A stretch of DNA of 64,000 bases, from NCBI RefSeq assembly GCF_009914755.1, contig NC_060940.1. One strand, written 5' to 3'. The stretch is from the human T2T-CHM13v2.0 reference genome, Homo sapiens. The notes below the pieces were generated by a model. That model saw only the letters and a list, made by a program, of their open reading frames with translations, was not told where the DNA came from and made no database searches. Shown here piece by piece: positions 34,542 through 55,364 of the stretch. The stretch's first letter is position 1; the number at the start of each line of letters is the position of its first letter. A program made the position numbers and the translations under genes.

Positions 34542-34795
34542 GCCCTCTGGGAGTTGTAGTTCCAGCTCCTCCTCGGGCCGCCCCACTCCCTGATAATCCT
34601 GGAGCGCGGCGCCTCCCGGGGACCGAGGCCTCGGGCCCGGCCGTCTCCAGCAGCGAGGGCAGGAGAAGTGGCCCGGGCGGTCGGCGGACTGGGAGGGCGC
34701 CACCCGAGGACTACAACTCCCGGCCTGCCTCGCGCAGGCACCGCCCCGAGCTTCCGCCCCGTCGGCGCCGCGCAGCCCTGTGGGAGCCGTAGTCC
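34542..34795. promoter_or_regulatory. Three ZNF143/THAP11-type ACTACA-TCCCA (SBS) motifs
   Basis: Minus 34542-34562 GAACTACAACTCCCAGAGGGC; plus 34710-34728 ACTACAACTCCCGGCCTGC; minus 34775-34795 GGACTACGGCTCCCACAGGGC. Confidence 0.8.
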
Positions 34796-35106: not shown

Positions 35107-38100
35107 GTGAGTCCCGTCGGCCGGGCCCGGCCGGGCGCCCAGCCGGGGACCCCGGGCGGGGAGCGCGGGCCCGGAGGGCGGCGGGGAGCGCGGGCTCGGC
35201 GGGGCGCAGGAGGCCTCGGGGGCCGGGCGCGCCGGGCTCCGAGCCAGGGCAGGGACGGCAGGGCCCCCGGAGTGGGGTCAGCCCGCCGCCCGCTGGCGCC
35301 TCCAGGCTGGTGGGGGCCAGGGCTGGGCGATGCTTCGCAGAGGAACCCAGAGGAAGGCGGGAAGTCGGCAGGGACCTGGGCCATGTGGGTCACTTGAGGC
35401 CAGCCCCGGGGGCCGCGCACACCGGAGGCGGCCTCGGCCCTGCCTGCCCTTGAGTGCCCTTATATCCGGGCCCATCGTGCGGTCCTGGCCGCCTTAGGGA
35501 TGTTGTGCTTGGTGCGGGCATCACTCCCCTCACTTGGGGAACGGCCTGGGGGCGGCCACCTGGCGTGGAGGGGCTGGCGGGAGCCCCGTCTGTGCCAGCC
35601 ATGCCAGTGTTCTCTTCCGTGTTCCTCTGGGGCTGCTGCGGCACCAGCTGGGAAGTTGCAAATCTGCTGTCCTCCCGCTGGCTGCAGAAGGGGCCCCTCT
35701 AGTCCTGACCGGGGGAACTCTTGTGTGGTCAGCTGGCCCTGGCCGGGCGAGCTCTCGGGGCCCCCTTACTGCTCTGGAGTTTGTTACCGGACTGCAGGTA
35801 ACAAGACCCGGAAAGCAATGGTGAGGCCCAGAACCTGAGGCCAGGCCTGGGTGTGTGGGGCCAGTGGGGAAGACTGGGACTCCGTTGGGTGCTGAAGAGT
35901 TGTGTGCTTCTCCTTCGGGAAACCCGGATCTCTTCCTCTGCCCAGGTCTGAGGGGTGCGGAAACGTGAGTCACAGTTCAGTGTGGGAGTGCCCCGTAATT
36001 GCCTCCGCGTTTCCAGAGTCTGGGGCTGGGCAAGGATATAGGGGTGATTCTCCCTTCCGGTTCTGAGTGACTTCTCAACTGTGAAGTGGGGCAAGAGAAA
36101 TTGTTTTTCTGGCCTGTCTGGGGGAGGCAGGTCCTGCAGGAAACCAGCTTGGCCTGGCCTTGGGTTGGGTGTGCCTTGCCTCCTCCGAGGTCCTTCTGCT
36201 TGCGGGAGGAGCACCCCTCTTTTTCCTGCTTCTGTCTGTGTCTGAGGCTCTCCAGAGCTCCTTGATTGGCAGAGGAGCCAGTGACCTCTGAGTCCCCAGG
36301 AGAGCCCGAGGCTCAGTAACTGCATAACTGCGCAGGGCCTCTTGTCTGGGCCTCCACAGACCGTGGTCTCTGAGAGCAGGAAGTGGCTGGTCCCCTGTAA
36401 TGCTGCATCTGTGTGACAGCCTCAAGCCCTGCTGGCTCTCTCTCCGGGCACCCCTCACTTGCTTCTTGCCCTGGCCTTGGGCAGCACTCCGGTAACCCCA
36501 GTGCCACAGGTGAGGAACCGAAGCTGGAGACAGCTGTTCATGGCAGGGGAGGGGCCGAGGGAGGCTGAGCGCCTGGTCTCTCCCTCCTGCTGGTTCCACC
36601 AGTTCACACGAGGCAATTGGAGGGAAGGATTCTGCTGCCCGGAAAATCCTCCGGAACCACAGGTGTTGTTCATGGGCCTGAGCCGCTCAGTGAAGAACTC
36701 GGCCGTTGGTGGCCGAGTTGCCCCTGGTCCAGCCCTCTGGCCCGCGGTGTGATGCCTCTACTCATGGCAACAGGCGTGGACAGGTGCTGAGAAGGAGGAC
36801 GACATCATTAAACAAAACAGCTTGGGGTCTTTGAAAAACAGTGACAGAAACCCAGGAAGGCTGGTGACTTGTCAGGTCTGTGTCTGTCCTGGGTGGCCAC
36901 TCGGCCCTGGACCGTGAGGCTGAAATGACAGGAGACACGGAGGGTGGGCTTGGGTGGTTTCCTCATAAGACACAGAAGAAGGAGGCCCCCAACCCGGGGG
37001 CTGCCTCGTGCGCTTTGCTCTCCTGTTTTCCTGCTCTGTCCCTCTGGTCCTGCCCTCTGACCCCTGGCACAGCAGGAGTGCCCAGAAGCCCAGTGGGACT
37101 TGTTCTCTGCCTAAAGCCCTTCCGCATCCCTCGTACCCACTCGGTGTGGATGTGGGTTTTCTCACCACCAGGCTGTGCCTCAGCTGTGTGGAGCCACTGG
37201 CCTCTCATGCCCCACGCTGGAGAGAACGCTGAGGTCTGTGCGGTTCTCATGTGACCCTGTAGCTGGTCCCTGGCTCCCCACTGTGGGATCTGCCTGCAGC
37301 ACTTACACTTGGGACCGCCCTGTCTCCCTGCTGGATGTGGCGCCGAGGGCAGGGTCCGTTTCTGTTTCTTGGTAGGCCTAGTGTCTAGCGCTATGCAGCC
37401 GTGCGCAGAGCAGGCGGTCAGTGAGCACCTGGGGTTGGCCCTCACCACAGGCAGTTCTGAATACCTGGGTTCTGGCAGCCCAGGGGGACTCCTGCGTGCT
37501 CCAGGAAAGTAGCACAGCAGCCCCTGTGGCGTGGACACGGCCACACCTGAGCTCGGCCTGTTTCTGAGTCTGAGAGAACAGGCTTGCTGGCCTGTGATCT
37601 TTGCATGTGTGTCTCGCTGCAGGGAGGCTGTGGGTTGGGGCTGGACCTAGACCCGTTCAGCCACACCCTGTCACTATGTGGGTCACACACAGCTGGGTGG
37701 AGACCTCCCGGTGCGTGGCCCAGGGAGGTGTCTGGGCGTGGAGTCTGTGGACAGCCACATTGTACCACTAGGACAGGGGCTGCTGCTGGGCCCACAGGGT
37801 GCACGGAATGGGGTCTGTGGGAGGATGGGGGCATCCTAGCCCAGGGCAGGGACCCCGTGGGCCCCCCAAGATGAGCTGCGTCAGGCTGTTGCTTTGCACA
37901 CTCTGAGGGGCCTGCCTGAGTGCTGCATGGGAAGCCAGCAGTGTGGCCGCCCTCCCCAGAACTCATCCAGGGCACCAGGGTGGACCCATGAGTCCCGTCG
38001 GGTCATGGGCATCAGCCTCGCCATCCTGGCCTCCAGATACAACGATTTGTCAGATTCCCTGAGGTCAAAGGGAAGCTTCAAGGGTTGCCATCCCCGCCTC

Positions 38101-41022: not shown

Positions 41023-41075
41023 GCAGCAGCCCAGACGCGGCACAGAGAGGGCCTGGGAGCTTGCTGCAGCTTCAG
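41023..41075 (+). other. CAPN15: CAPN15 exon 2 (5' UTR, 53 nt)
   Basis: CCTCCCTTTCTAG acceptor, CAG|GTGAGT donor. Confidence 0.8.
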
Positions 41076-43461: not shown

Positions 43462-43800
<339 letters not shown>

Positions 43801-45329
43801 TGGGAGCCTTTTCCGTAGCTGCTCATCCTGTACTAGCATCTGTCCATCATGAGTGGACGGAACACAGGGGGACCCAGGACCCACAGCTGCACTCGGGAAG
43901 GCCAGCAGGGTGGATTTCGGGAAGAGCATCGGTGCCAGTTTCCCACAGTCACCCTTGCGATGGGACCCTCAGGTTGGCACGTGGCTGGCAGCTGTGTCCC
44001 GGGAGCTCTTGCTCCTTAGTGGGCCTCGCCAGCCAGGGCAGGGCCCCCGGCACCCCTCACGGGGCTCTTGACTCCTCTGGCAGCGGATCGGGGCGGTTCA
44101 GCGATACCATCTCTGGAGATCCCCTGGCGTGTGCTGGAAAAACCCCGGAGAGGGCTTAACAGAGCCAGCTGTCCAGCCTCTGTGACAGGGACGTTTGCTT
44201 TTCTCTGCAGGGTCCTCTCTTCTCTTCCGAGCACCCACGGGAGGGGACTGTGCTGTCCCTGCTCTCCTAGGACAGGCCTCCCTCCTGTCCAGATGGGGCC
44301 CACAGGGTCAGTTGCCTGAGACTGGCTCCAGCTCAAGAAAGGTTTTCTGAGTGAGCGCAGGGGAGCAGGAGGCTGGTGAGCAGCTCGCTTCCTGCCCTGG
44401 GTGCAGCTGGGCACCACTTCTGCCTTGGGCCTAAAGGCATCAGTGAGGAGCAGGCGGGGCCTGGTAGGAGCCTGTGTTTCTAGCGGCACGCGTGACCCCA
44501 GGTGCCACGTGGGTGAGTGCGTGGGTGGGTGAGTGGCGAAGGAGCTGAGGTTGGCCCTGGCAGGTGTGCAGTCCTCACACAGAACGGGCAGGGCTCCTGT
44601 CAGAGCCAAACCAGCTCAGGGCCCAGTGCAAGCAGCTTCTGTCCCGTGGCACCTCCGCTAGTCGCCGCTCCCACCCAAGCCCTGCCCCGCCCTGACCCGC
44701 TCAGGGTTTGGCTACAGAAGGGGAGTGTCGGAAATGCCCAACCCGTCTCCCGTGAGGGACTCCTGCGTGGCCTGGGCTGGGGAACGCAGGGGCCGTTTGG
44801 GTGGTTCCGGCGTCTGGCGTAGCCACGCGAGAGGCCCTGGGTTGATGCGTGGGCTCCCTGCTAGCGAGCCTGCTCCGTGCGTGCTGGGCTCCCGGCCTTG
44901 CTTCCGTGTGGCATTCGAGACCCCGTGGACCTCGCCTGCGTCCTGCATGTTTGAGCGCTGCCCCTTGTGGAGGCCGCCAGCACTGGTGGCTGCAGGGCCT
45001 GTAGTGTGGCACGTCCAGAGACCCGGCCTGGAGAACGGGTCCTGGATGTCTCCGTCATGTTTTACGTTCGCTTCACACGGACGCAGCGATGTCTCAGATA
45101 CCTCGGATCACACAGAGCACGTCGCCAAGGCTTGTTTTGTCTGTTCCTTTCCACCTGTCTTACGTGGATACCAGGAGATCCGCCACGACTCCCGTGGCCC
45201 CGTCCACACTGCGCGGCGCTCTCCGGCGTGGCCGCCAGGTGCCCCTTCGAGGGCAGGTGTGAGTACAGGGTGGTCCCTGTGGAGAAGCGCCTGCAGGCGA
45301 GTGAGCCAGGCTGTGCCCTGCTGACCCCG

Positions 45330-45495
45330 AGGCCTGAATTTCATGGAACTCCCACCTCTCACAGAGTATTGTTTTTTTTTTTGATTTTTTTCCAACCATT
45401 TAAAAATGTAAAAGCCATTGTTGACTTGCGGGCTGGACCAGGCTTAGGGCTGGGCTCTGGTCCGCACCCCACACTGGCCCCGTGTGTCCTGTGAC
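45330..45495 (+). mobile_element. MER58B-like DNA transposon fragment
   Basis: TGAATTTCAT...TTTTGATTTTTTTCCAACCATTTAAAAATGTAAAA matches the recalled MER58B internal segment. Confidence 0.6.
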
Positions 45496-46023
45496 CGTTC
45501 TGCCTACGGGGCAGGCCTGAGCCACCACAGGATGGCAGGGTCTCCAGGGTGCAGGGCCCGCAATGCTTCAACCCTCCCACGACCCCAGCACCTTCAGAGA
45601 AAACGGACCCTCGTGCCGAGTGAAGTGGTTCAGGCGAACGTTATCACCACACGGGGGACTCGGCGGCTTCTGCCCCAGGCCTCAAAGGAGAGGGGATCCA
45701 GAATTCTCTGTCTCACCCCCTCAGCCCCTGCCCTTGAAGCTTCTGTCCCCAAGGCTGTGGGGAGGAACCAGGGAAGGGCTGGCGCGTCTGCTGTGCGATC
45801 CCAGGTGCTCGTGCCTCGCTGAGCTCAGCCCCTGTGGCCTCAGAGCTGCAGGCCCCTCCCGGGTGTCAGAGCACTGACTGGAAAGGCCCCCCACATCCCT
45901 GCCCTCTGCTGCTCCCCATCGTCGCGGGGGAGAAGCTGGAACTGCACCCCCACCCCCCCCAGCCCGCTCACCTAGGGCTGCCCCCAGGCCTCCCTGAGCT
46001 CCAAAGGATATGTTCTTTGGTGC

Positions 46024-46225
46024 TTTTTTTTTTTTTGGCTCTGTCTCCCAGGCTGGAATGCAGCTGTGGTGCTCACGCCATCCTCCCATGTCAGCCTCCT
46101 GAGTAGCTAGGTCTACAGGTGCACACCACCACACCCGGATAGTGTTTAGTTTTCTATAAAGACAGGGTCTCACTGTGTTGCCCAGGCTGGTCTCAAACTC
46201 TTGGGCTCAGGTGATCCCCCACGCA
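46024..46225 (-). mobile_element. Internally deleted AluJ
   Basis: Partial Alu arms. Confidence 0.75.
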
Positions 46226-47266
46226 CGGCAGCTTTGACACTTACTTGACCCTTTCCTCCTAAGCTCTACCCTGACGCTGGCTGTGTGTCCCAGAGACTTA
46301 ATCAGAAGCTGGAAGAAGGGCTGTGACGTGTGTGACAGCAGGAACTGCTGGTCAACCCACAGCCGGCCAGCCTGCCGGGACGCCATCTTGGCCCCAATCT
46401 TGGCAGGGAGAGGGGAGTGTATCGGACTCTGGGGAGAGCAGCTGCCTGCACGGGCAGGGTCCTCCCGTCTCAGGATTAACGTTCTCAACTGTATTTGATT
46501 TCTCCTCAGCCAGAGGGGGTAAGGTGGCCTTCCCAGAAGCACAGGTGGGCCGCGTGTCAGAGGCCCTGGACAGCCTGTGCCTCTCCCAGGCCTCCCAGCA
46601 GGGGTGGCTCTCGCCCCTCTGGAGGGGAGACCCCAGGAACCGGCCCCCGCCCTCAGCCATAGCCTCACAGGGTCCTTGTTTCTCGGGGCCTGGCTCTGTG
46701 GGTGCACAAGGCATGGTCGGGCTCCCGTCCTTCTGGAAGTCTCCAGAGTGGCATGTGGGCAGCTGTGTGAAGCGGCCCCCCAGATCTTCATCCAGCCTGG
46801 CCTGCAGCAGCTCCCTACGCCCTCTGCTACCTCCCCTGCCTACCTTTGGGTAGACGTTCTCTTGACCCTTCCTTCTGTGATAAAGCAAAAGCGTGTGATC
46901 TCTTTTCTCACCAAGGAATAAAACGTCTCTGAATACCACAGACGTGATGCCGGGCTTTTGGGGGCCGGGGGGTGTCCTAGGGCCCCGAGGGAGGAGCCCT
47001 GTGGGTGCCGAAGTCGGGCCGCAGGCCCTGCACTGAGATGTCCCCTCAGCCTACCCCAGGCGGCTGGGCATGCTGGGAAGTCCTCCCGGGCTGTGTGTGT
47101 GAATCATGCTGTTTCTTCTCTATTTTCTCTCTCTGTCTGTTTATTTTTGTTGTGTGTCACTCTGCCCAGCCGGCCGTCCTGTCTCTTCCCTCCATGCTCC
47201 GCTTCGCCCGCTGCTGGCCAGAGGTGACCAGGTCCGGCTCTCAGCACGGCCGCCGGCCGGGGGGCC

Positions 47267-47448
47267 ATGGGGAGCTCCGCCTCCTCCCTGGCCGCAGAGA
47301 CCGAGTCGGACCACAGCTTCCCCGGGGGACCGCCCTACCCGGGTCCCCCGGCAGCGGCTGGCTGGTGTAGGAGCGGCCCAGGGGGGCCCGTCTGGGGAGG
47401 TGCCCTGGTCAGCCGGCAGCACCAGCCCCCACGGCCCCGGGCCCGAAG
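47267..47448 (+). CDS. CAPN15: Candidate alternative N-terminal coding exon of CAPN15 (exon 47170-47448; [18 protein letters not shown]...)
   Basis: Long pyrimidine tract and CAG at 47169, GCCATGG Kozak, AAG|GTAAGA donor. 182 nt plus 22 nt of exon 4 gives 68 stop-free codons in frame with ATG 53916. Confidence 0.6.
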
Positions 47449-48370
47449 GTAAGAGGTGGGGAGGGGTGGCCCCGGAGGGCTCCCGGGGGCAGAGGGCCTC
47501 GTTCTCAGGGTGCCCCCTCCTTGGCAGAGGTGCTTGCAGAGAAGTGGGTCCCTGCTCCTTCCAGTTGTGGCAGCTCTCTTCCCCAGGGTGCAGGAGCTGA
47601 GCAGGTCTGAGACCCCGGCCTCGGCCTGGCTGGTTGGTGGTGGGGATGGGGGCTAGTGCGCCCAATCCCGGCGGCCCTGTGTTTCTCACAGGCTGTGCTG
47701 CTCCACGCAGAGAAGCTGTTCCTGAAGCTTCTTTTTGGGCTGGGGTCGCTGGCGGCTGCAGGCTCTGGGCATATTGCCTGCTGCCCACGGTTTCAAAGCT
47801 GCCAGCACTCGCTGGGCTCCGCCTGCTGCCCCCCCGGGGGTCACAGGCCACATGGCTTGGTGGCCGAACTCCACGTGCTGGCTCCTCACAGCTGTCACCA
47901 TGGCCTTGGCTACCCGCTGCGTCCCTCAGGAGCTGCCATCAGGTTCTGAGGTGCCTGGTCTGGAGGCAGTCCAGGTGGTGAGGTCTGGACTGGCTGGACC
48001 CCACCGATGCTCCTGCCGTCACCCCGTCCTGGCCCTCACTGGAGGCAGGGACACTCAGGGGCCCGGGGCCTCGGGGCCAGTGCTGCAGTGGCCGCCGTTG
48101 CTCTCACAGCGGGTCCAGGCCTGGCTTCTGAAGGCAATGTGCCTGCGTCTCACACTCAAAAGGGCCTGCCAGGCTGCACCTGGCGGCAGCTCCCACGGGG
48201 GACGATGTCCTGCTGTCTGTTGGCCCCCAGGTGGGAGGGACGGGCGTGGAGCTGCAGGCAGTGGGCAAGGCCATGGCAGGTGGCCAGGCCTGGGAACCAG
48301 CCTCCAGGTGGCATCCACGCTGAGGCCTGAGCTCCGGCCGACAAGGACTGGGGATGCAGGGGATTAGCCA

Positions 48371-48549
48371 GGGGCTGTGTGGGGGAGCCCTGGAGCCCTG
48401 TCTGCGAGTTACCCCGATGAACAGGGAGACGCGGCAGAGGCAGGGCCGGGGAGGGGCCGTGTGGGGGAGCCCTGGAGCCCTGTCTGCGAGTTACCCTGAT
48501 GGACAGAGAGACGCGGCAAAGGCAGGGCCGGGGAGGGGCCGTGTGGGGC
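48371..48549 (+). repeat. ~82-bp tandem duplication
   Basis: GTGTGGGGGAGCCCTGGAGCCCTGTCTGCGAGTTACCC occurs twice. Confidence 0.88.
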
Positions 48550-48669
48550 CTGGTGGTCGGCAGAGGAAGGGTCTGTGCTCCTCCTGCGTGTGGTGGCACC
48601 GGAGCGCCTCCCAGTTCCTGGTGTTACCGCACCAGCCGCCTCCCAGTGAGCATCTCCACGTGTGCCGAC

Positions 48670-50245
<1,576 letters not shown>

Positions 50246-50353
50246 AAACAGAAAAATGTAGAAAGGATTGTCGTTCCCTTTCTCGTTTTCCAGAGGGCAG
50301 AGGACTCTCGGCCCCTGCTTTTTGAGCACCAGGCCGAGTTTCAGACCTCGGGA

Positions 50354-50443
50354 TGGCCTCTCCAGTCTGCAGCTCCCGGCAGCCTCGGGCCACACTCCCG
50401 GGATCCCCAGGGACTGGCCTGGGACTACCGGGGGTGGCGGCCG
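50354..50443 (+). ncRNA. MIR3176: MIR3176 precursor
   Basis: Recalled mature ACTGGCCTGGGACTACCGG at 50413-50431, pairing with CCGGCAGCCTCGGGCCA upstream. Confidence 0.78.
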
Positions 50444-51764
50444 TGGCTCTGGCTATGGGGAGGGAGGCAGAGCCGCGGGGCAGGCGTGGGGTCTGCTGTG
50501 CCGGGTATGTGGGGCGTGTGTTAGACTTTGGACCTGGCCTGCGGGGTCAGGCCGTGGTGTATGATGACGCCACGCCGCTCTTTCTCTTTCACCCTGGCCT
50601 CCTGCCTGGCCCTCCCCTGGGTCGGCATCCCTGGGGCCACTCCTGCCCGTGCCCGCTGCTGTGGGGCCTGGGCTCCAGGCAGCTCCTGTCTGCTGCTGCA
50701 AACAGGCCCCCAAGGTGCATGGTGAGGAGACCCCCAGGCTAGAGATGGGCGAGAGCGGTGGGCGAGCAGACTGCGGGAAGGCAGCTGGGCCTCCACACGC
50801 GGAGCCCTCCCCACCACGTGCATGCACAGGCGACCCCTGCCGTGCTCCGACGGAGGGCGCCGGGACTGGGGAGGGTCAGCGCGACAGCCCTGGCGTTTAC
50901 TGAAGAGCTGCCTGCCTGGCTCGCTGCCCTGGTGGCCGCTGAATTCTCCCAACGCCCCAGGACAGCAGGTGCTGTGGCCCCATGACCGCTCCCCCACATG
51001 GATGAAGGGGTGGTGCACAGGCTGGTGGAGCCTGGGAGAGCCAGGGCAGCCTGCGGCCATGCGGCCATGCGGCCGGCGTGGGGCTGAGGTCCCTGTACAG
51101 CTGACAGAGTGCCTGGCGCCCTCAATCAGTAAGTCATCTACGGGCCGGGCACCGGCGGCTCAGCACAGAGAGGCAACAAGGGTAGACCCCCCCTGGCAAG
51201 GCTGACCGGCGCCGGGCTGTGGCCAGACCAGGAGACTGCAGCCCAGCTCGAGGGAGGCACCACGCCTGCCCCTCAGAGCACTGAGCAGAGCCCCCCATGG
51301 TATCCCCCGCCCTGGGCACAGCAGGAGGAGCTGCCGACCAAGTCTGGCACCCCGGTGTGCCCCGAGAGCTGTCTGGGCACAGGTTGCGGGGCTGCCCCGG
51401 CCGGACGGGGCATCTGTGTTTCTCGGTGTGGCCTCAGGGCTCTGGTGGCTTTGACCGAGGCCCCGGGGGACAGAATGCAGCTTCCTGCTCCTCACTTTTC
51501 CTAAGAAAGGGGCCGCCTCCCAGGACTGGGGCTGCGCCAGTCACAGGCCCGCGGCCTCCACGCTCCGGGTGCTGCTGTCCCGGCTGCTTCAGGGCGGGCT
51601 CTGTCTTGCACGCAGCGAGCGGCTTCATCACCTCCCTTTTGAATTGGAGCTGAGTGTCGGCAACGCCCAGATAACTGGGGCGCGCGGGTCTTTTGTGCTG
51701 GATTTTTCTGTACAGTTGCCTCGATCTTCCATCCAGCTTGGCCTCTGTGCAGTAAGGAGCGGCC

Positions 51765-51996
51765 CGTCGCCTCCCCCACGTCGCCTCCCCCACGTCGCCT
51801 CCCCCACGTCGCCTCCCCCACGTCGTCGCCTCCCCCACGTCGCCTCCCCCACGTCGTCTCCCCCACGTCGTCGTCTCCCCCACGTCGCCTCCCCCACGTC
51901 GCCTCCCCCACGTCGCCTCCCCCACGTCGCCTCCCCCACGTCGCCTCCCCTCACGTCGTCGTCTCCCCCCACGTCGTCGTCTCCCCTCACGTCGTC
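51765..51996 (+). repeat. 14/17-bp CpG-rich minisatellite, ~15 copies
   Basis: Unit CGTCGCCTCCCCCA with CGTCGTCG variants. Confidence 0.93.
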
Positions 51997-53915
51997 TGCC
52001 CTGAGCCCGCTCCCTTCGAAGGTAACCATCCTGCAGTAGTGAGGGCTCCTTGCTGAGCACGTGTGGCTGCGACTTCAGGAGCGTTCTGGGTTGAGAATTC
52101 CAAAAGGGCTTCGCTCAGGCCTGGCTTTGGGTCTTTGGGCTCCTGACGCGAGCTTTTACTTCCAGGCTTTGGCGGTCTGGCCTCAGGAGGTCAAGGCTGC
52201 AGTGAGCCGTGCGCGAGCCACTGCACCATCCTGGGCAATCAGACCCCATCTCTAAAGTTCAAAACAACATCTTTGTAAGGGTTTCGGGTCTCTGAGCCCA
52301 TGAACCTGCCCAGGCCCTGCAGAGGTGAGGGTGGCCCTAGAGTGGCTGGGGGGTTGTGGAGACCAGAACCAGGGCAGAAGGGCAGGGAGGGTGGGGGCCC
52401 TGCCGAGGTCTCCCACCGCTGACCCCTGACCCCTGGCCCCCTTCCACCTCGGCCCACCGAGAGAGGCCGGCACAGCGCAGACTGCGGGGTCAGTGACACT
52501 CCCCTCAGCGTCTCCAGCCACAGAAGGGCCGTGGCCTGCCTTCGCCCTCCTCACCCGTGTCCCGGGGCCACGTTTGAACTTTAGGCCTTGTTCTGACTTC
52601 ATTGAAACCCTCCTGAAGTGCAGACGTCTTCCTGACCCACCTGGGTTTTGCCAGGATGACTCCGAAAGGTGTCTCCCAGCAGACACACCCCGCTGGCGAT
52701 TGTTTGGTCCTGGGGACCCGGGTTCTCATTCTCCTCTCTGGAGCTGGTGAGGCTGTCCTTGCTAGTCGGTGACAACTACAGGGCCAAAGGGAGGGTGTGT
52801 CCCAGGAGGCCCAGCCCACCTCTGCCTGCACCTGCGGTCAGCGGGGTGCAGAGTCTGTGAAGGCACCTCCCGGAGTGGGGGCTGCAAAGATCATGGCCAC
52901 TGTGCCACCCACAGGGGCCCAGGCCGGACGCCTGGGCTGTGCCGCCTCGGCAGCCAGGCCGAGGAACGTGCAGGTGCGGCCGGGAGCCCGCCGGCCACAG
53001 CTGCATCCATGCCCTTCTCCGAGTGGTGATGGCGGGGAGAGGCCTGGCTGTCTACGGGCAGATTGCTTGGGCTTTCACAGAAGCCCGCTGTTAGAGCAGA
53101 TTCCCGGCCTTGGGTCTCTCTGCTCCAGCTGGACGCCCTGAGCCTCGCCGGGCCCAGTCCACCCCCGTCCACTCTGCCAGGGGCAGCTCAGAGCCCTCGC
53201 CACGCGGGGCTGAGCGCAGGGAAGGCAGCATCACGGAGTTCGCTCGGCTCCACAGAACACCCGTGTTGCTCGCGGAGACTTTTTGTTTTTGTGCTTCTTA
53301 TGAAGAGGCAGGTTTTCTTTCTTCCTGAACCAAAAGGGTTTAGATGGAGCACAAGATTCAGGCCATATTTACAAGAACAATTGATTTTTCTGCCAGGCAG
53401 AGCAGCCAGTCTGTCTCGGAGGCTGTGCTGTGGTGTGGGGAGGCCCCTTGCTCAGATCAGCCTGTGCCTTCCCCAGGCCCCGGCCCATGCACCTGCCCTT
53501 CCGTAGGTCTGAGCACCTGTTCTTCCACGCCCAGGACGACCTGGTCCTGAGTTTGGCCGGGACCCCCTGCTATCTGCCGTCCACAGGCCTGGTGACAGAG
53601 AAAGCAGTGCCCTGGAACAGCAGCCCGGCTGTGGGGTGCTCAGCCCTCTCTGTAGGATCCTGTGTGGCTCAAGGGGTCTGCTGAGCCTCCAACGGGCAAG
53701 AGGGGCCCTGAGCCATGGATCCATTCTGGGTGGAGGCAGCCCCCACCGCCGCCTGCCTCAAATGCTCAGCCCTAGGCCCTCGGCCCCGTAGCTCTGCAGC
53801 CACAGACGGGTGCCTTCCCCAGGCCGAGAGGAGGGTGGGGTCCAGCCACTCAGGACCTCACAGGGTGGCCCTGATGAGCACCTTCCCTTGCAGCCACACC
53901 CACTCGCCCGGGTCT

Positions 53916-55364
53916 ATGGCCACGGTCGGAGAGTGGTCCTGTGTGCGCTGCACCTTCCTGAACCCGGCCGGCCAGCGCCAGTGCTCCATCTGCGAGGCTC
54001 CCCGGCACAAGCCCGACCTCAACCACATCCTGCGGCTCAGCGTGGAGGAGCAGAAATGGCCCTGCGCCCGCTGCACCTTCCGCAACTTCCTGGGCAAGGA
54101 GGCCTGCGAGGTGTGCGGCTTCACCCCGGAGCCTGCGCCTGGGGCTGCCTTCCTGCCAGTCCTCAACGGGGTCCTCCCCAAGCCACCCGCCATCCTGGGG
54201 GAGCCCAAGGGCAGCTGCCAGGAGGAAGCAGGTCCAGTGAGGACTGCGGGGCTGGTGGCCACGGAGCCCGCCAGGGGGCAGTGCGAGGACAAGGACGAGG
54301 AGGAGAAGGAGGAGCAGGAGGAGGAGGAGGGAGCGGCGGAGCCCAGAGGGGGCTGGGCGTGTCCGCGTTGCACGCTGCACAACACGCCCGTGGCCAGCTC
54401 CTGCTCCGTCTGCGGGGGCCCACGCAGGCTCTCGCTGCCACGGATCCCTCCTGAGGCCCTGGTGGTCCCGGAAGTGGTGGCCCCGGCCGGCTTCCACGTC
54501 GTGCCTGCCGCGCCTCCACCTGGCCTCCCCGGGGAAGGTGCCGAGGCCAACCCCCCAGCCACCAGCCAGGGCCCAGCTGCCGAACCAGAGCCGCCCAGGG
54601 TCCCGCCCTTCAGCCCCTTCTCGTCCACCCTGCAGAACAACCCCGTGCCGCGCAGCCGACGCGAGGTTCCCCCCCAGCTGCAGCCACCGGTGCCTGAGGC
54701 TGCCCAGCCGTCACCCTCTGCCGGCTGCAGGGGAGCCCCCCAGGGCTCGGGCTGGGCTGGGGCCTCCCGCCTAGCAGAGTTGCTGTCTGGCAAGCGGCTG
54801 AGTGTGCTGGAGGAAGAGGCCACGGAGGGTGGCACCAGCCGCGTAGAGGCCGGCAGCTCCACCTCGGGCAGTGACATCATTGACCTGGCCGGAGACACCG
54901 TGCGTTACACGCCCGCCAGCCCCTCCAGCCCCGACTTCACCACCTGGTCATGTGCCAAGTGCACGCTCAGAAACCCCACAGTGGCCCCCAGGTGCTCGGC
55001 CTGCGGCTGCTCCAAACTGCACGGCTTCCAGGAGCATGGCGAGCCCCCCACCCACTGCCCCGACTGTGGGGCCGACAAGCCCAGCCCCTGCGGCAGAAGC
55101 TGCGGACGGGTGTCCTCGGCCCAGAAGGCCGCCCGCGTCCTGCCCGAGCGCCCGGGCCAGTGGGCCTGCCCTGCCTGTACCCTGCTCAACGCACTGCGGG
55201 CCAAGCACTGCGCCGCCTGCCACACGCCTCAGCTCCTGGTGGCCCAGCGGCGGGGGGCCGCGCCCCTGAGGCGCAGGGAGAGCATGCACGTGGAGCAGCG
55301 GCGGCAGACAGACGAGGGCGAGGCCAAGGCACTCTGGGAGAACATCGTGGCCTTCTGCCGGGAG
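53916..55364 (+). CDS. CAPN15: CAPN15 (calpain-15/SOLH) exon 4 coding part, aa 1-483, five RanBP2-type zinc fingers; exon begins at 53894
   Basis: Five W-x-C-x2-C-T-x2-N-x6-C-x2-C motifs; CCTTCCCTTGCAG acceptor, GAG|GTGAGG donor. Confidence 0.96.

What the first reader, a model, noticed from the sequence alone, without database searches (positions are those of the whole stretch)
47100..47455. Hidden coding exon that would give calpain-15 a 68-aa N-myristoylated extension
Seen: deep in CAPN15 intron 3 lie a ~55-nt pyrimidine-rich tract ending in CAG (47169), an ATG in perfect Kozak context (GGGGCC ATG G, 47267) and a strong donor (GAAG|GTAAGA, 47449). From ATG to donor is 182 nt. Splicing to the exon 4 acceptor (53894) gives AG|C CAC ACC CAC TCG CCC GGG TCT ATG, stop-free and in frame with the canonical start, predicting a 1154-aa isoform [18 protein letters not shown]...RARSHTHSPGS-MATVGEW. 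Established: M-G-x-x-x-S is the N-myristoyltransferase consensus, and the canonical ATG has a weaker context (T at -3). Inference: alternative splicing or an internal promoter could switch this ubiquitin-binding zinc-finger protease to a membrane-anchored form. It may exist in predicted gene models; I cannot check that.
Basis: partly seen in the sequence, partly recalled or inferred. Interest (0 to 1): 0.85.

Follow-up and report, generated by a model that had tools for sequence, protein, structure and literature searches.

The report
Conserved lipid-tag start exon of calpain-15
An alternative exon inside the human calpain-15 gene, already present in predicted gene models, encodes a 68-residue front end whose first eight residues, a signal for attaching a fatty acid, are unchanged from fishes to humans, so the textbook protein start probably misses a real and ancient part of this protease.

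Summary

The exon is not hidden. 10 of 21 RefSeq CAPN15 mRNA models start their coding part at 47267. XM_054313766.1 and XM_054313767.1 give the predicted 1154-aa protein.

The human sequence alone proves nothing. The exon is 76% G+C, so a 61-codon open frame has a chance probability of about 0.5.

Cross-species protein data decide the question. The extension occurs in placentals, marsupials, birds, turtles, bichir, sturgeon, gar and teleosts. MGSSASSL is invariant in 97 of 97 distinct orthologue-type extensions. All 148 proteins that start with the motif fit the N-myristoylation pattern.

So this is an ancient coding exon with a selected Met-Gly start, very probably an N-myristoyltransferase substrate.

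Stable membrane anchoring is doubtful: no basic or cysteine second signal follows, and the segment is acidic. An internal promoter is not supported.

I found no paper on calpain-15 myristoylation. Expression level and lipidation remain untested.

The parts
47108..47169 (+). Pyrimidine-rich tract and 3' splice site (ends CAG) of the short form of the exon
   Evidence: 77% pyrimidine over 62 nt. Acceptor 47170 is used by 5 of the 10 models that carry the exon: XM_054313762.1, 763.1, 764.1, 765.1 and 767.1.
47170..47448 (+). Alternative (cassette) exon of CAPN15, 279 nt, lying in intron 3 of NM_005632.3
   Evidence: RefSeq exon 543170-543448. It is not in a masked repeat of 100 nt or more. The peptide it encodes is unique in the genome (one match at E 3e-33, the next best at E 2.1).
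47170..47266 (+). Untranslated leader part of the exon. It holds one upstream ATG at 47194 (weak context, out of frame, 58-codon ORF overlapping the main start) and the in-frame stop TGA at 47225-47227.
47267..47448 (+). Coding part: start codon plus 60 codons and 2 bases. It encodes the Met-Gly N-terminus with the myristoylation pattern, an acidic stretch and a Pro/Gly/Trp-containing segment.
   Evidence: Translation. This is the coding start of 10 of 21 RefSeq models. Conserved in 97 distinct orthologue-type sequences.
47449..47454 (+). 5' splice site GTAAGA
   Evidence: All 10 models join 47448 to 53894.
43714..47169 (+). Upstream sequence included in the long (intron-retaining) versions of the exon: 43714-47448 in 3 models and 44211-47448 in 2 models
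   Evidence: These leaders carry 22-24 upstream ATGs, so they are poor templates for starting at 47267.
53894..53915 (+). First 22 nt of exon 4. This is 5'UTR in the reference mRNA and coding in the long isoform (the last 8 residues of the extension, the first codon being split by the intron).
   Evidence: This segment is near-invariant from fishes to mammals, including in models built with other first exons (P0004, P0010, P0036).
53916..53918 (+). Reference start codon of CAPN15, which is Met69 of the long isoform

Best explanation
Window 47170-47448 is a genuine, ancient coding exon of CAPN15. When it is spliced between the 5' leader exons and exon 4, translation starts at 47267 instead of 53916. 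The protease then gains a 68-residue N-terminal extension.

The first residues of that extension (Met-Gly, then only small residues, with Ser at position 6) are a substrate motif for N-myristoyltransferase. The long isoform is therefore made with a myristoyl group on Gly2, and the reference isoform is not. Inclusion or skipping of the exon is the switch.

No second membrane signal follows the motif. The lipid more likely gives weak or reversible membrane binding, binding to a lipid-carrier protein, or an intramolecular contact than permanent anchoring.

Shown here: the exon, its frame, its annotation and its conservation. Inferred: myristate attachment, its consequence, and how much of the long form human cells make.
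For: 1. Anatomy is exact. 10 of 21 RefSeq CAPN15 models use it, all with the 47448-53894 junction.

2. An unbiased search with exon-4 protein already returned proteins with the extension. Of 43 hits of 962 aa or less, 6 start with the motif: elephant P0012, gar P0015, a mormyrid P0024 and three teleost paralogues. A fin-whale fragment also had it.

3. Targeted searches found it widely.
- Elephant residues 1-68 gave 84 protein clusters at E<=0.01 out of 101 candidates: placentals, 2 marsupials, 3 turtles and a salmon.
- Gar residues 1-69 gave 116 clusters out of 132 candidates: teleosts, sturgeon, bichir, 8 bird clusters, turtles and mammals.

4. The first eight residues are invariant in 97 of 97 distinct orthologue-type extensions, human included. 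Glu11, Phe18 and several residues just before the reference Met are also invariant.

5. In a 39-species full-length alignment, mean identity to the primate reference was:
- 0.90 for residues 1-18;
- 0.69 for residues 1-68;
- 0.21-0.79 for 34-residue windows across the rest of the N-terminal half (residues 69-510).

6. 148 of 148 proteins that start with the motif fit the N-myristoylation pattern (the pattern is recalled from PROSITE).

7. Several kinds of source carry the extension, judging by their names: NCBI 'isoform X' models, UniProt entries for opossum, dog, tilapia and medaka, and genome-project entries named 'hypothetical protein' or 'unnamed protein product' (for example Aldrovandia, Gadus). 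The 22-nt 'UTR' of exon 4 is conserved at the protein level.

8. The start context has a purine at -3 and G at +4. The reference start has T at -3.
Against: - No transcript, ribosome or peptide data could be consulted. RefSeq's chosen transcript skips the exon, and the models that include it are all computational.
- Half of those models (5 of 10) retain 3.2-3.7 kb of intron, with 22-24 upstream ATGs.
- Even the short form has an overlapping out-of-frame upstream ATG at 47194.
- 3 of the 149 proteins found carry the motif but are annotated with extra residues before the Met-Gly (P0175, P0177, P0178). One (P0176) has a different first exon.
- No amphibian, squamate, coelacanth or cartilaginous-fish protein with the extension was returned. 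The gecko (P0004, P0006) and elephant-shark (P0008) models lack it.
- No second membrane signal follows the motif.
- Myristoylation was not tested. No paper mentions it. Supplementary tables of myristoylome studies were closed.
Confidence: 0.7

Rival explanations
1. The extension is translated and selected, but Gly2 is not myristoylated. The conserved N-terminus would serve another purpose, such as a docking or phosphorylation segment or an N-terminal stability signal.
For: The whole 68 residues are conserved, not only the first seven. That includes an acidic Ser/Thr stretch, two Trp residues and an Arg-x-Arg-[Ser/Asn]-x-[Ser/Thr] motif in 146 of 148 proteins. No second membrane signal follows. 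No experimental report of lipidation was found.
Against: Invariance of Gly2, of the small residues at 3-5 and of Ser6 in 97 of 97 distinct sequences is what selection on an N-myristoyltransferase site predicts. The teleost paralogue changed residues 3 and 5 but kept a pattern-conforming motif.
Confidence: 0.15
2. In humans the exon is splicing noise. It is included rarely and feeds no meaningful amount of protein. The conservation reflects a function kept in other vertebrates, or only at certain stages.
For: The RefSeq Select transcript NM_005632.3 skips it. All models that include it are Gnomon predictions, half of them with retained intron. An upstream ATG overlaps the start. In many fishes the only model listed has the extension, whereas in mammals it is listed as one of several isoforms.
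Against: The human exon has intact splice sites, an intact ATG and an intact frame. Its peptide is identical over all 68 residues to the gibbon cluster representative P0089. It differs from other placentals at only a few positions. A decaying exon would not look like this.
Confidence: 0.1
3. An internal promoter just upstream of the exon drives the long isoform.
For: None beyond the possibility itself. One model (XM_054313776.1) starts at 47455, but that is downstream of the exon.
Against: All 10 exon-containing models begin at 34789 or 35835. No enhancer or promoter element is listed at the exon. The 500-nt window starting at 47000, which covers the exon, has a CpG observed/expected ratio of 0.53 at 70% G+C.
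Confidence: 0.05

Closest known systems
RefSeq predicted calpain-15 long isoforms (human XM_054313759.1-XM_054313767.1 and XM_054313769.1; 'calpain-15 isoform X1' and similar in many vertebrates)
   Same: It is the same exon, start codon and junction.
   Different: The database entries are unreviewed computational models with no functional note. The conservation of the Met-Gly motif and its implication are not stated there, nor in any paper I could find.
NADH-cytochrome b5 reductase (CYB5R3): a myristoylated membrane form and a soluble erythroid form from one gene
   Same: One gene makes an N-myristoylated form and a non-myristoylated form that differ only at the N-terminus, through alternative 5' exon use (PMC2289487, abstract seen in the listing).
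   Different: There the switch is an alternative promoter, and the membrane form also has a hydrophobic anchor stretch (PMC2171821, abstract seen). Here the switch is a cassette exon behind the same promoters, and no hydrophobic or basic second signal follows.
Kinetoplastid calpain-like protein CAP5.5 and related acylated calpain-like proteins
   Same: These are calpain-family proteins with an N-terminal fatty-acylation motif. CAP5.5 is reported to be myristoylated and palmitoylated (PMC4181241, passages seen).
   Different: That N-terminal domain is described as unique to kinetoplastids, and it carries dual acylation. The CAPN15 extension is vertebrate, unrelated in sequence, and has no cysteine near Gly2.
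High-affinity cargo of the myristoyl-binding chaperones UNC119A and UNC119B
   Same: The published motif is small or medium residues at positions 3, 4 and 5 of a myristoylated N-terminus (PMC8246649, passages seen). The long CAPN15 form has Ser, Ser, Ala there, invariant in orthologues.
   Different: No binding data exist for CAPN15. This is a resemblance to a short motif, not evidence of interaction.

Membership tests
N-myristoyltransferase substrate (co-translational N-myristoylation) | Initiator Met followed by Gly at position 2 | tested here: met
   (human). 148 of 189 fetched proteins start Met-Gly with the motif. 145 of the 149 proteins do.
N-myristoyltransferase substrate (co-translational N-myristoylation) | Residues 3-7 fit the consensus: no charged, aromatic or Pro residue at 3; a small residue or Ser/Thr at 6; no Pro at 7 (PROSITE-type pattern, recalled) | tested here: met
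   148 of 148 proteins that start with the motif fit. The first eight residues are invariant in 97 of 97 distinct orthologue-type sequences.
N-myristoyltransferase substrate (co-translational N-myristoylation) | Myristate actually attached to Gly2 | not testable with these tools
   Needs metabolic labelling or mass spectrometry. No report was found in main texts. Supplements were closed.
Alternative coding exon of a protein-coding gene | Canonical splice sites and an in-frame, stop-free junction to the downstream exon | tested here: met
   CAG|47170, 47448|GTAAGA, CAG|53894. The spliced coding sequence gives 1154 or 1162 aa with a single terminal stop.
Alternative coding exon of a protein-coding gene | The encoded peptide is conserved across species beyond what non-coding sequence keeps | tested here: met
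   The extension aligns from teleosts to human (gar against the gibbon representative: 54% identity). Residues 1-18 have 0.90 mean identity over 39 species.
Alternative coding exon of a protein-coding gene | Transcript and translation evidence in the species concerned | not testable with these tools
   Only Gnomon models were available.
Small-optic-lobes (SOL) calpain, CAPN15 | N-terminal RanBP2-type zinc fingers plus a calpain protease core (and the SOL C-terminal domain) | tested here: met
   P0089 has Peptidase_C2 at E 2.2e-82 and Zn_ribbon_RanBP in 4 stretches. PF26741 is precomputed for most hits. The extension itself matches no Pfam family.
Stably membrane-anchored myristoylated protein (myristate plus a second signal) | A polybasic cluster or palmitoylatable Cys next to the myristoylated Gly | tested here: not met
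   0 of 148 have Lys or Arg, and 0 of 148 have Cys, in residues 3-10. 148 of 148 have at least 3 acidic residues in 1-18.
UNC119 high-affinity cargo | Small or medium residues at positions 3, 4 and 5 of a myristoylated N-terminus (PMC8246649) | tested here: met
   Ser, Ser, Ala. The criterion was read. Binding itself is not testable here.
Isoform driven by an internal promoter | A transcription start or CpG island directly upstream of the exon | tested here: not met
   None of the 10 models starts near the exon. CpG observed/expected is 0.53. No regulatory element is listed there. Cap-mapping data were not available.

The most novel reading that the evidence does not exclude
The long, Met-Gly-initiated protein is the ancestral and physiologically principal form of calpain-15, and the human and mouse reference proteins are N-terminally truncated. 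Its myristoylated N-terminus, with small residues at positions 3-5 and no second membrane signal, would be a high-affinity cargo of the UNC119 lipid chaperones. That would deliver this ubiquitin-binding protease to the primary cilium or to synaptic sites. It would link the eye and brain malformations of CAPN15 deficiency to ciliary or synaptic proteolysis. It would also mean that disease variants in this exon are currently read as intronic.
Probability: 0.12. Interest if true: 0.8.

Novelty: new member of a known kind. Interest (0 to 1): 0.55.

Why it matters
Loss of CAPN15 causes eye and neurodevelopmental malformations in mice and humans. Its substrates and its site of action remain unidentified (PMC12002525, abstract and passages seen).

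If the protein normally carries a conserved, lipid-modified 68-residue front end, three consequences follow:
1. Expression constructs that begin at the reference Met would lack a targeting or regulatory element.
2. Proteomic searches against reference proteomes would miss the true N-terminus. PMC12002525 searched the mouse UniProt database with N-terminal acetylation, not myristoylation, as the variable N-terminal modification.
3. Clinical variant calling against the reference transcript would score changes in window 47170-47448 (chr16:543170-543448 in T2T-CHM13) as deep intronic.

It would also be, as far as my searches show, the first animal calpain with an N-myristoylation signal.

Tried and rejected
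- Statistical significance from the human sequence alone: rejected. A stop-free run of this length has a chance probability of about 0.5 at 76% G+C, and long ORFs occur in other frames and on the other strand.
- Repeat or transposon origin of the exon: no masked repeat of 100 nt or more overlaps it, and the peptide has no second copy in the genome.
- A known domain in the extension: none in Pfam. The protein Atlas gave no usable hit for residues 1-68.
- Internal promoter: not supported.
- Literature: none of the following searches found a report of an N-terminal extension or lipidation of calpain-15.
  - CAPN15 + isoform: 39 papers, 25 listed. I read passages of two.
  - CAPN15 + myristoyl: 1 paper, irrelevant.
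  - calpain-15 + N-myristoylation: 0 papers.
  - small optic lobe + calpain + myristoyl: 3 papers. One (PMC9648470) was read and is irrelevant. The other two I judged from title and abstract only and did not open.
  - SOLH + myristoyl: 50 papers, 15 listed. Their titles and abstracts are unrelated to calpain-15. I opened none and did not see the other 35.
  - Two peptide strings: 0 papers each.
  - Supplements, where myristoylome and phosphopeptide lists live, were closed.
- Taxa where the extension was not seen: it was not found in amphibians, squamates, coelacanth, cartilaginous fishes or invertebrates.
- Codon-level tests (synonymous against non-synonymous change): impossible, because no vertebrate genomes other than this one were available.
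Full report
**1. The observation**

- A pyrimidine-rich tract (47108-47169, 77% pyrimidine) ends in CAG.
- An ATG lies at 47267 in the context GGGGCCATGG.
- A donor AAG|GTAAGA follows base 47448.
- The exon 4 acceptor is at 53894, 22 nt before the reference start at 53916.

ATG to donor is 182 nt. The junction is in frame and stop-free, and the product is 1154 aa. An in-frame TGA at 47225 closes the frame upstream, so 47267 is the first possible start in that frame.

**2. It is not hidden**

The RefSeq table for this chromosome lists 21 CAPN15 mRNA models.
- 10 start their coding part at 47267: XM_054313759.1 to 767.1, and 769.1.
- 9 start at the reference Met.
- 2 start elsewhere.

XM_054313766.1 and XM_054313767.1 encode the 1154-aa protein. 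Seven others encode 1162 aa through a different last-exon acceptor, and one encodes 1098 aa.

Five of the ten use the acceptor at 47170. They reach it from exon 3, from exon 2 or from an extra exon. The other five retain 3.2-3.7 kb of upstream intron and carry 22-24 upstream ATGs. All ten join 47448 to 53894.

The short-exon models have between 1 and 5 upstream ATGs. One of them, at 47194, is out of frame, in weak context, and overlaps the main start.

**3. The human sequence alone is not evidence of coding**

The exon is 76.3% G+C. A 61-codon stop-free run has probability about 0.5. One other frame of the exon has no stop at all, and a 236-aa ORF lies on the opposite strand. A Met-Gly start with a small residue at position 6 is also not rare in such sequence.

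**4. The outside support is strong**

A search with the exon-4-encoded protein (window 53715-55364, 550 aa) returned 43 proteins of 962 aa or less. Six of them begin with the same motif: elephant, spotted gar, a mormyrid fish and three teleost 'calpain-15-like' paralogues. A fin-whale fragment carries the rest of the extension.

Searching with the extension alone gave the following.
- Elephant residues 1-68: 84 clusters at E<=0.01 of 101 candidates. These were placentals of many orders, two marsupials, three turtles and a salmon.
- Gar residues 1-69: 116 clusters at E<=0.1 of 132 candidates. These were many teleosts, sturgeon, bichir, eight bird clusters, turtles and mammals.

Of the 149 proteins from these two searches, 145 start with the motif. 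Three are annotated with extra residues in front of it (P0175, P0177, P0178), and one has another first exon (P0176).

Among 97 distinct orthologue-type extensions, human included, the first eight residues are invariant. So are Glu11, Phe18, and Ser61, Ser65 and Met69 (human numbering).

In a 39-species full-length alignment (A1), mean identity to the primate reference was as follows:

| Region | Mean identity |
|---|---|
| Residues 1-18 | 0.90 |
| Residues 58-68 | 0.87 |
| Residues 1-68 | 0.69 |
| 34-residue windows across residues 69-510 (zinc-finger half) | 0.21-0.79 |

The gibbon cluster representative P0089 is identical to human over all 68 residues.

The 22 nt of exon 4 that the reference mRNA treats as untranslated encode residues that are nearly invariant from fish to human. 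They appear even in models that were built with unrelated first exons (P0004, P0010, P0036).

Annotation pipelines can copy a model from one species to another. They cannot create this conservation in the genomes. The entries also appear to come from several kinds of source, judging by their names: NCBI 'isoform X' models, UniProt entries, and genome-project entries named 'hypothetical protein' or 'unnamed protein product'.

**5. What it is**

It is an ancient coding exon of the single vertebrate SOL-family calpain. It has been present at least since the common ancestor of ray-finned fishes and tetrapods, and it is kept in both teleost paralogues. It is unique in the human genome, not repeat-derived, and outside any Pfam family.

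**6. How it most likely works**

Shown: inclusion of the exon moves the start codon 68 residues upstream, to a Met-Gly start in a stronger initiation context.

Inferred: Gly2 is myristoylated co-translationally. All 148 proteins that start with the motif fit the recalled PROSITE-type pattern. The absolute invariance of residues 1-8 is what selection on an enzyme recognition site predicts.

Residues 3-10 contain no Lys, Arg or Cys in any of the 148 proteins, and residues 1-18 are acidic in all. By the two-signal rule (recalled), myristate alone gives only transient membrane binding.

The lipid may instead serve reversible membrane sampling, an intramolecular contact, or binding to a lipid chaperone. 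On the last point, the published motif for high-affinity UNC119 cargo is small or medium residues at positions 3-5 of a myristoylated N-terminus (PMC8246649, passages seen). The long form has Ser, Ser, Ala there. That is a lead, not a result.

Other conserved elements suggest regulatory content beyond the lipid site. They are the acidic Ser/Thr stretch, two Trp residues, and an Arg-x-Arg-[Ser/Asn]-x-[Ser/Thr] motif in 146 of 148 proteins.

**7. The switch**

The models point to alternative splicing of a cassette exon behind the usual promoters. They do not point to an internal promoter. No exon-containing model starts near the exon, no regulatory element is listed there, and the local CpG ratio is 0.53.

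How often human cells include the exon is unknown here. Reads were not available, and the RefSeq Select transcript skips it.

**8. Comparison with what is known**

- The exon and isoform are already in public predicted models, so the sequence feature is not new.
- NADH-cytochrome b5 reductase is a classic case of one gene making a myristoylated and a non-myristoylated form through alternative 5' exons (PMC2289487, abstract seen).
- Acylated calpain-like proteins are known in kinetoplastids (PMC4181241, passages seen), but with an unrelated, lineage-specific N-terminal domain.
- I found no paper that mentions an N-terminal extension or lipidation of calpain-15. Supplementary tables, which could list it among myristoylome or phosphopeptide hits, were closed.
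- A recent N-terminomics study of Capn15 knockout brain searched the mouse UniProt database with acetylation as the variable N-terminal modification (PMC12002525).

**9. Verdict**

The coding exon and the conserved myristoylation motif hold. 'Hidden', 'internal promoter' and 'membrane-anchored' do not, or are untested.
- Novelty: a new member of a known kind (an alternative N-terminal exon carrying a myristoylation signal), for a protein whose literature ignores it.
- Interest is moderate to good (0.55). The conservation is striking and has practical consequences for constructs, proteomics and variant interpretation. However, the exon is already annotated, and lipidation and abundance remain to be shown.

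**10. Limits**

They see only proteins of 0.55-1.75 times the query length that share exact words with it. The absence of amphibian, squamate, shark and invertebrate hits therefore says little.
- No genomes of other vertebrates were available, so no codon-level selection test was possible.

Noticed in passing
window 48882-49156 and 49073-49127: A 55-nt tandem repeat (5.0 copies, 98% matches) lies here. The 'intron' 49073-49127 of model XM_054313776.1 is exactly one 55-nt unit. It is therefore probably a copy-number difference between the transcript evidence and the assembly, not a real intron.
   Followed up: partly
window 47455-55364 (XM_054313776.1), coding from 53715: This model starts 7 nt after the exon's donor, retains the rest of intron 3, and opens an ORF 67 residues upstream of the reference Met. 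No homologue covered those 67 residues: the best hits cover 88% of the 550-aa query. It looks like an intron-retention artefact.
   Followed up: partly
window 35216-35820 (coding from 35500) and 41023-41075: XM_054313768.1 uses an alternative first exon and reads through exon 2 into exon 4 in frame, giving a 1218-aa protein with yet another N-terminus. Its conservation was not examined.
   Followed up: no
window 60733, 60757, 60761: There are three alternative acceptors of the last exon. They give +8 residues (1094 or 1162 aa), the reference form (1086 or 1154 aa), or a frameshifted short C-terminus (1030 or 1098 aa).
   Followed up: no
proteins P0031, P0033, P0040, P0041 (teleost calpain-15-like paralogue): The paralogue keeps a variant of the Met-Gly motif with changed residues 3 and 5. 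It also has an internal Met-Gly-Cys about 27 residues in, where one model (P0041) starts.
   Followed up: no
window 47366-47368 (codon 34 of the extension): Residue 34 is Cys in placentals, Tyr in marsupials, birds and turtles, and Leu in fishes, within an otherwise conserved Gly-Trp-x-Arg segment. I did not assess whether the placental Cys could be lipidated.
   Followed up: no
window 47438-47448 plus 53894-53915: An Arg-x-Arg-[Ser/Asn]-x-[Ser/Thr] motif followed by Ser-Pro lies just before the reference Met in 146 of 148 proteins. It resembles basophilic and proline-directed kinase sites (recalled consensus).
   Followed up: no
window 47141-47851, minus strand: A 236-aa ORF lies on the opposite strand, and a 164-aa ORF lies in another plus-strand frame, both across the exon. 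Both are expected from the high G+C content and were not taken as genes.
   Followed up: partly
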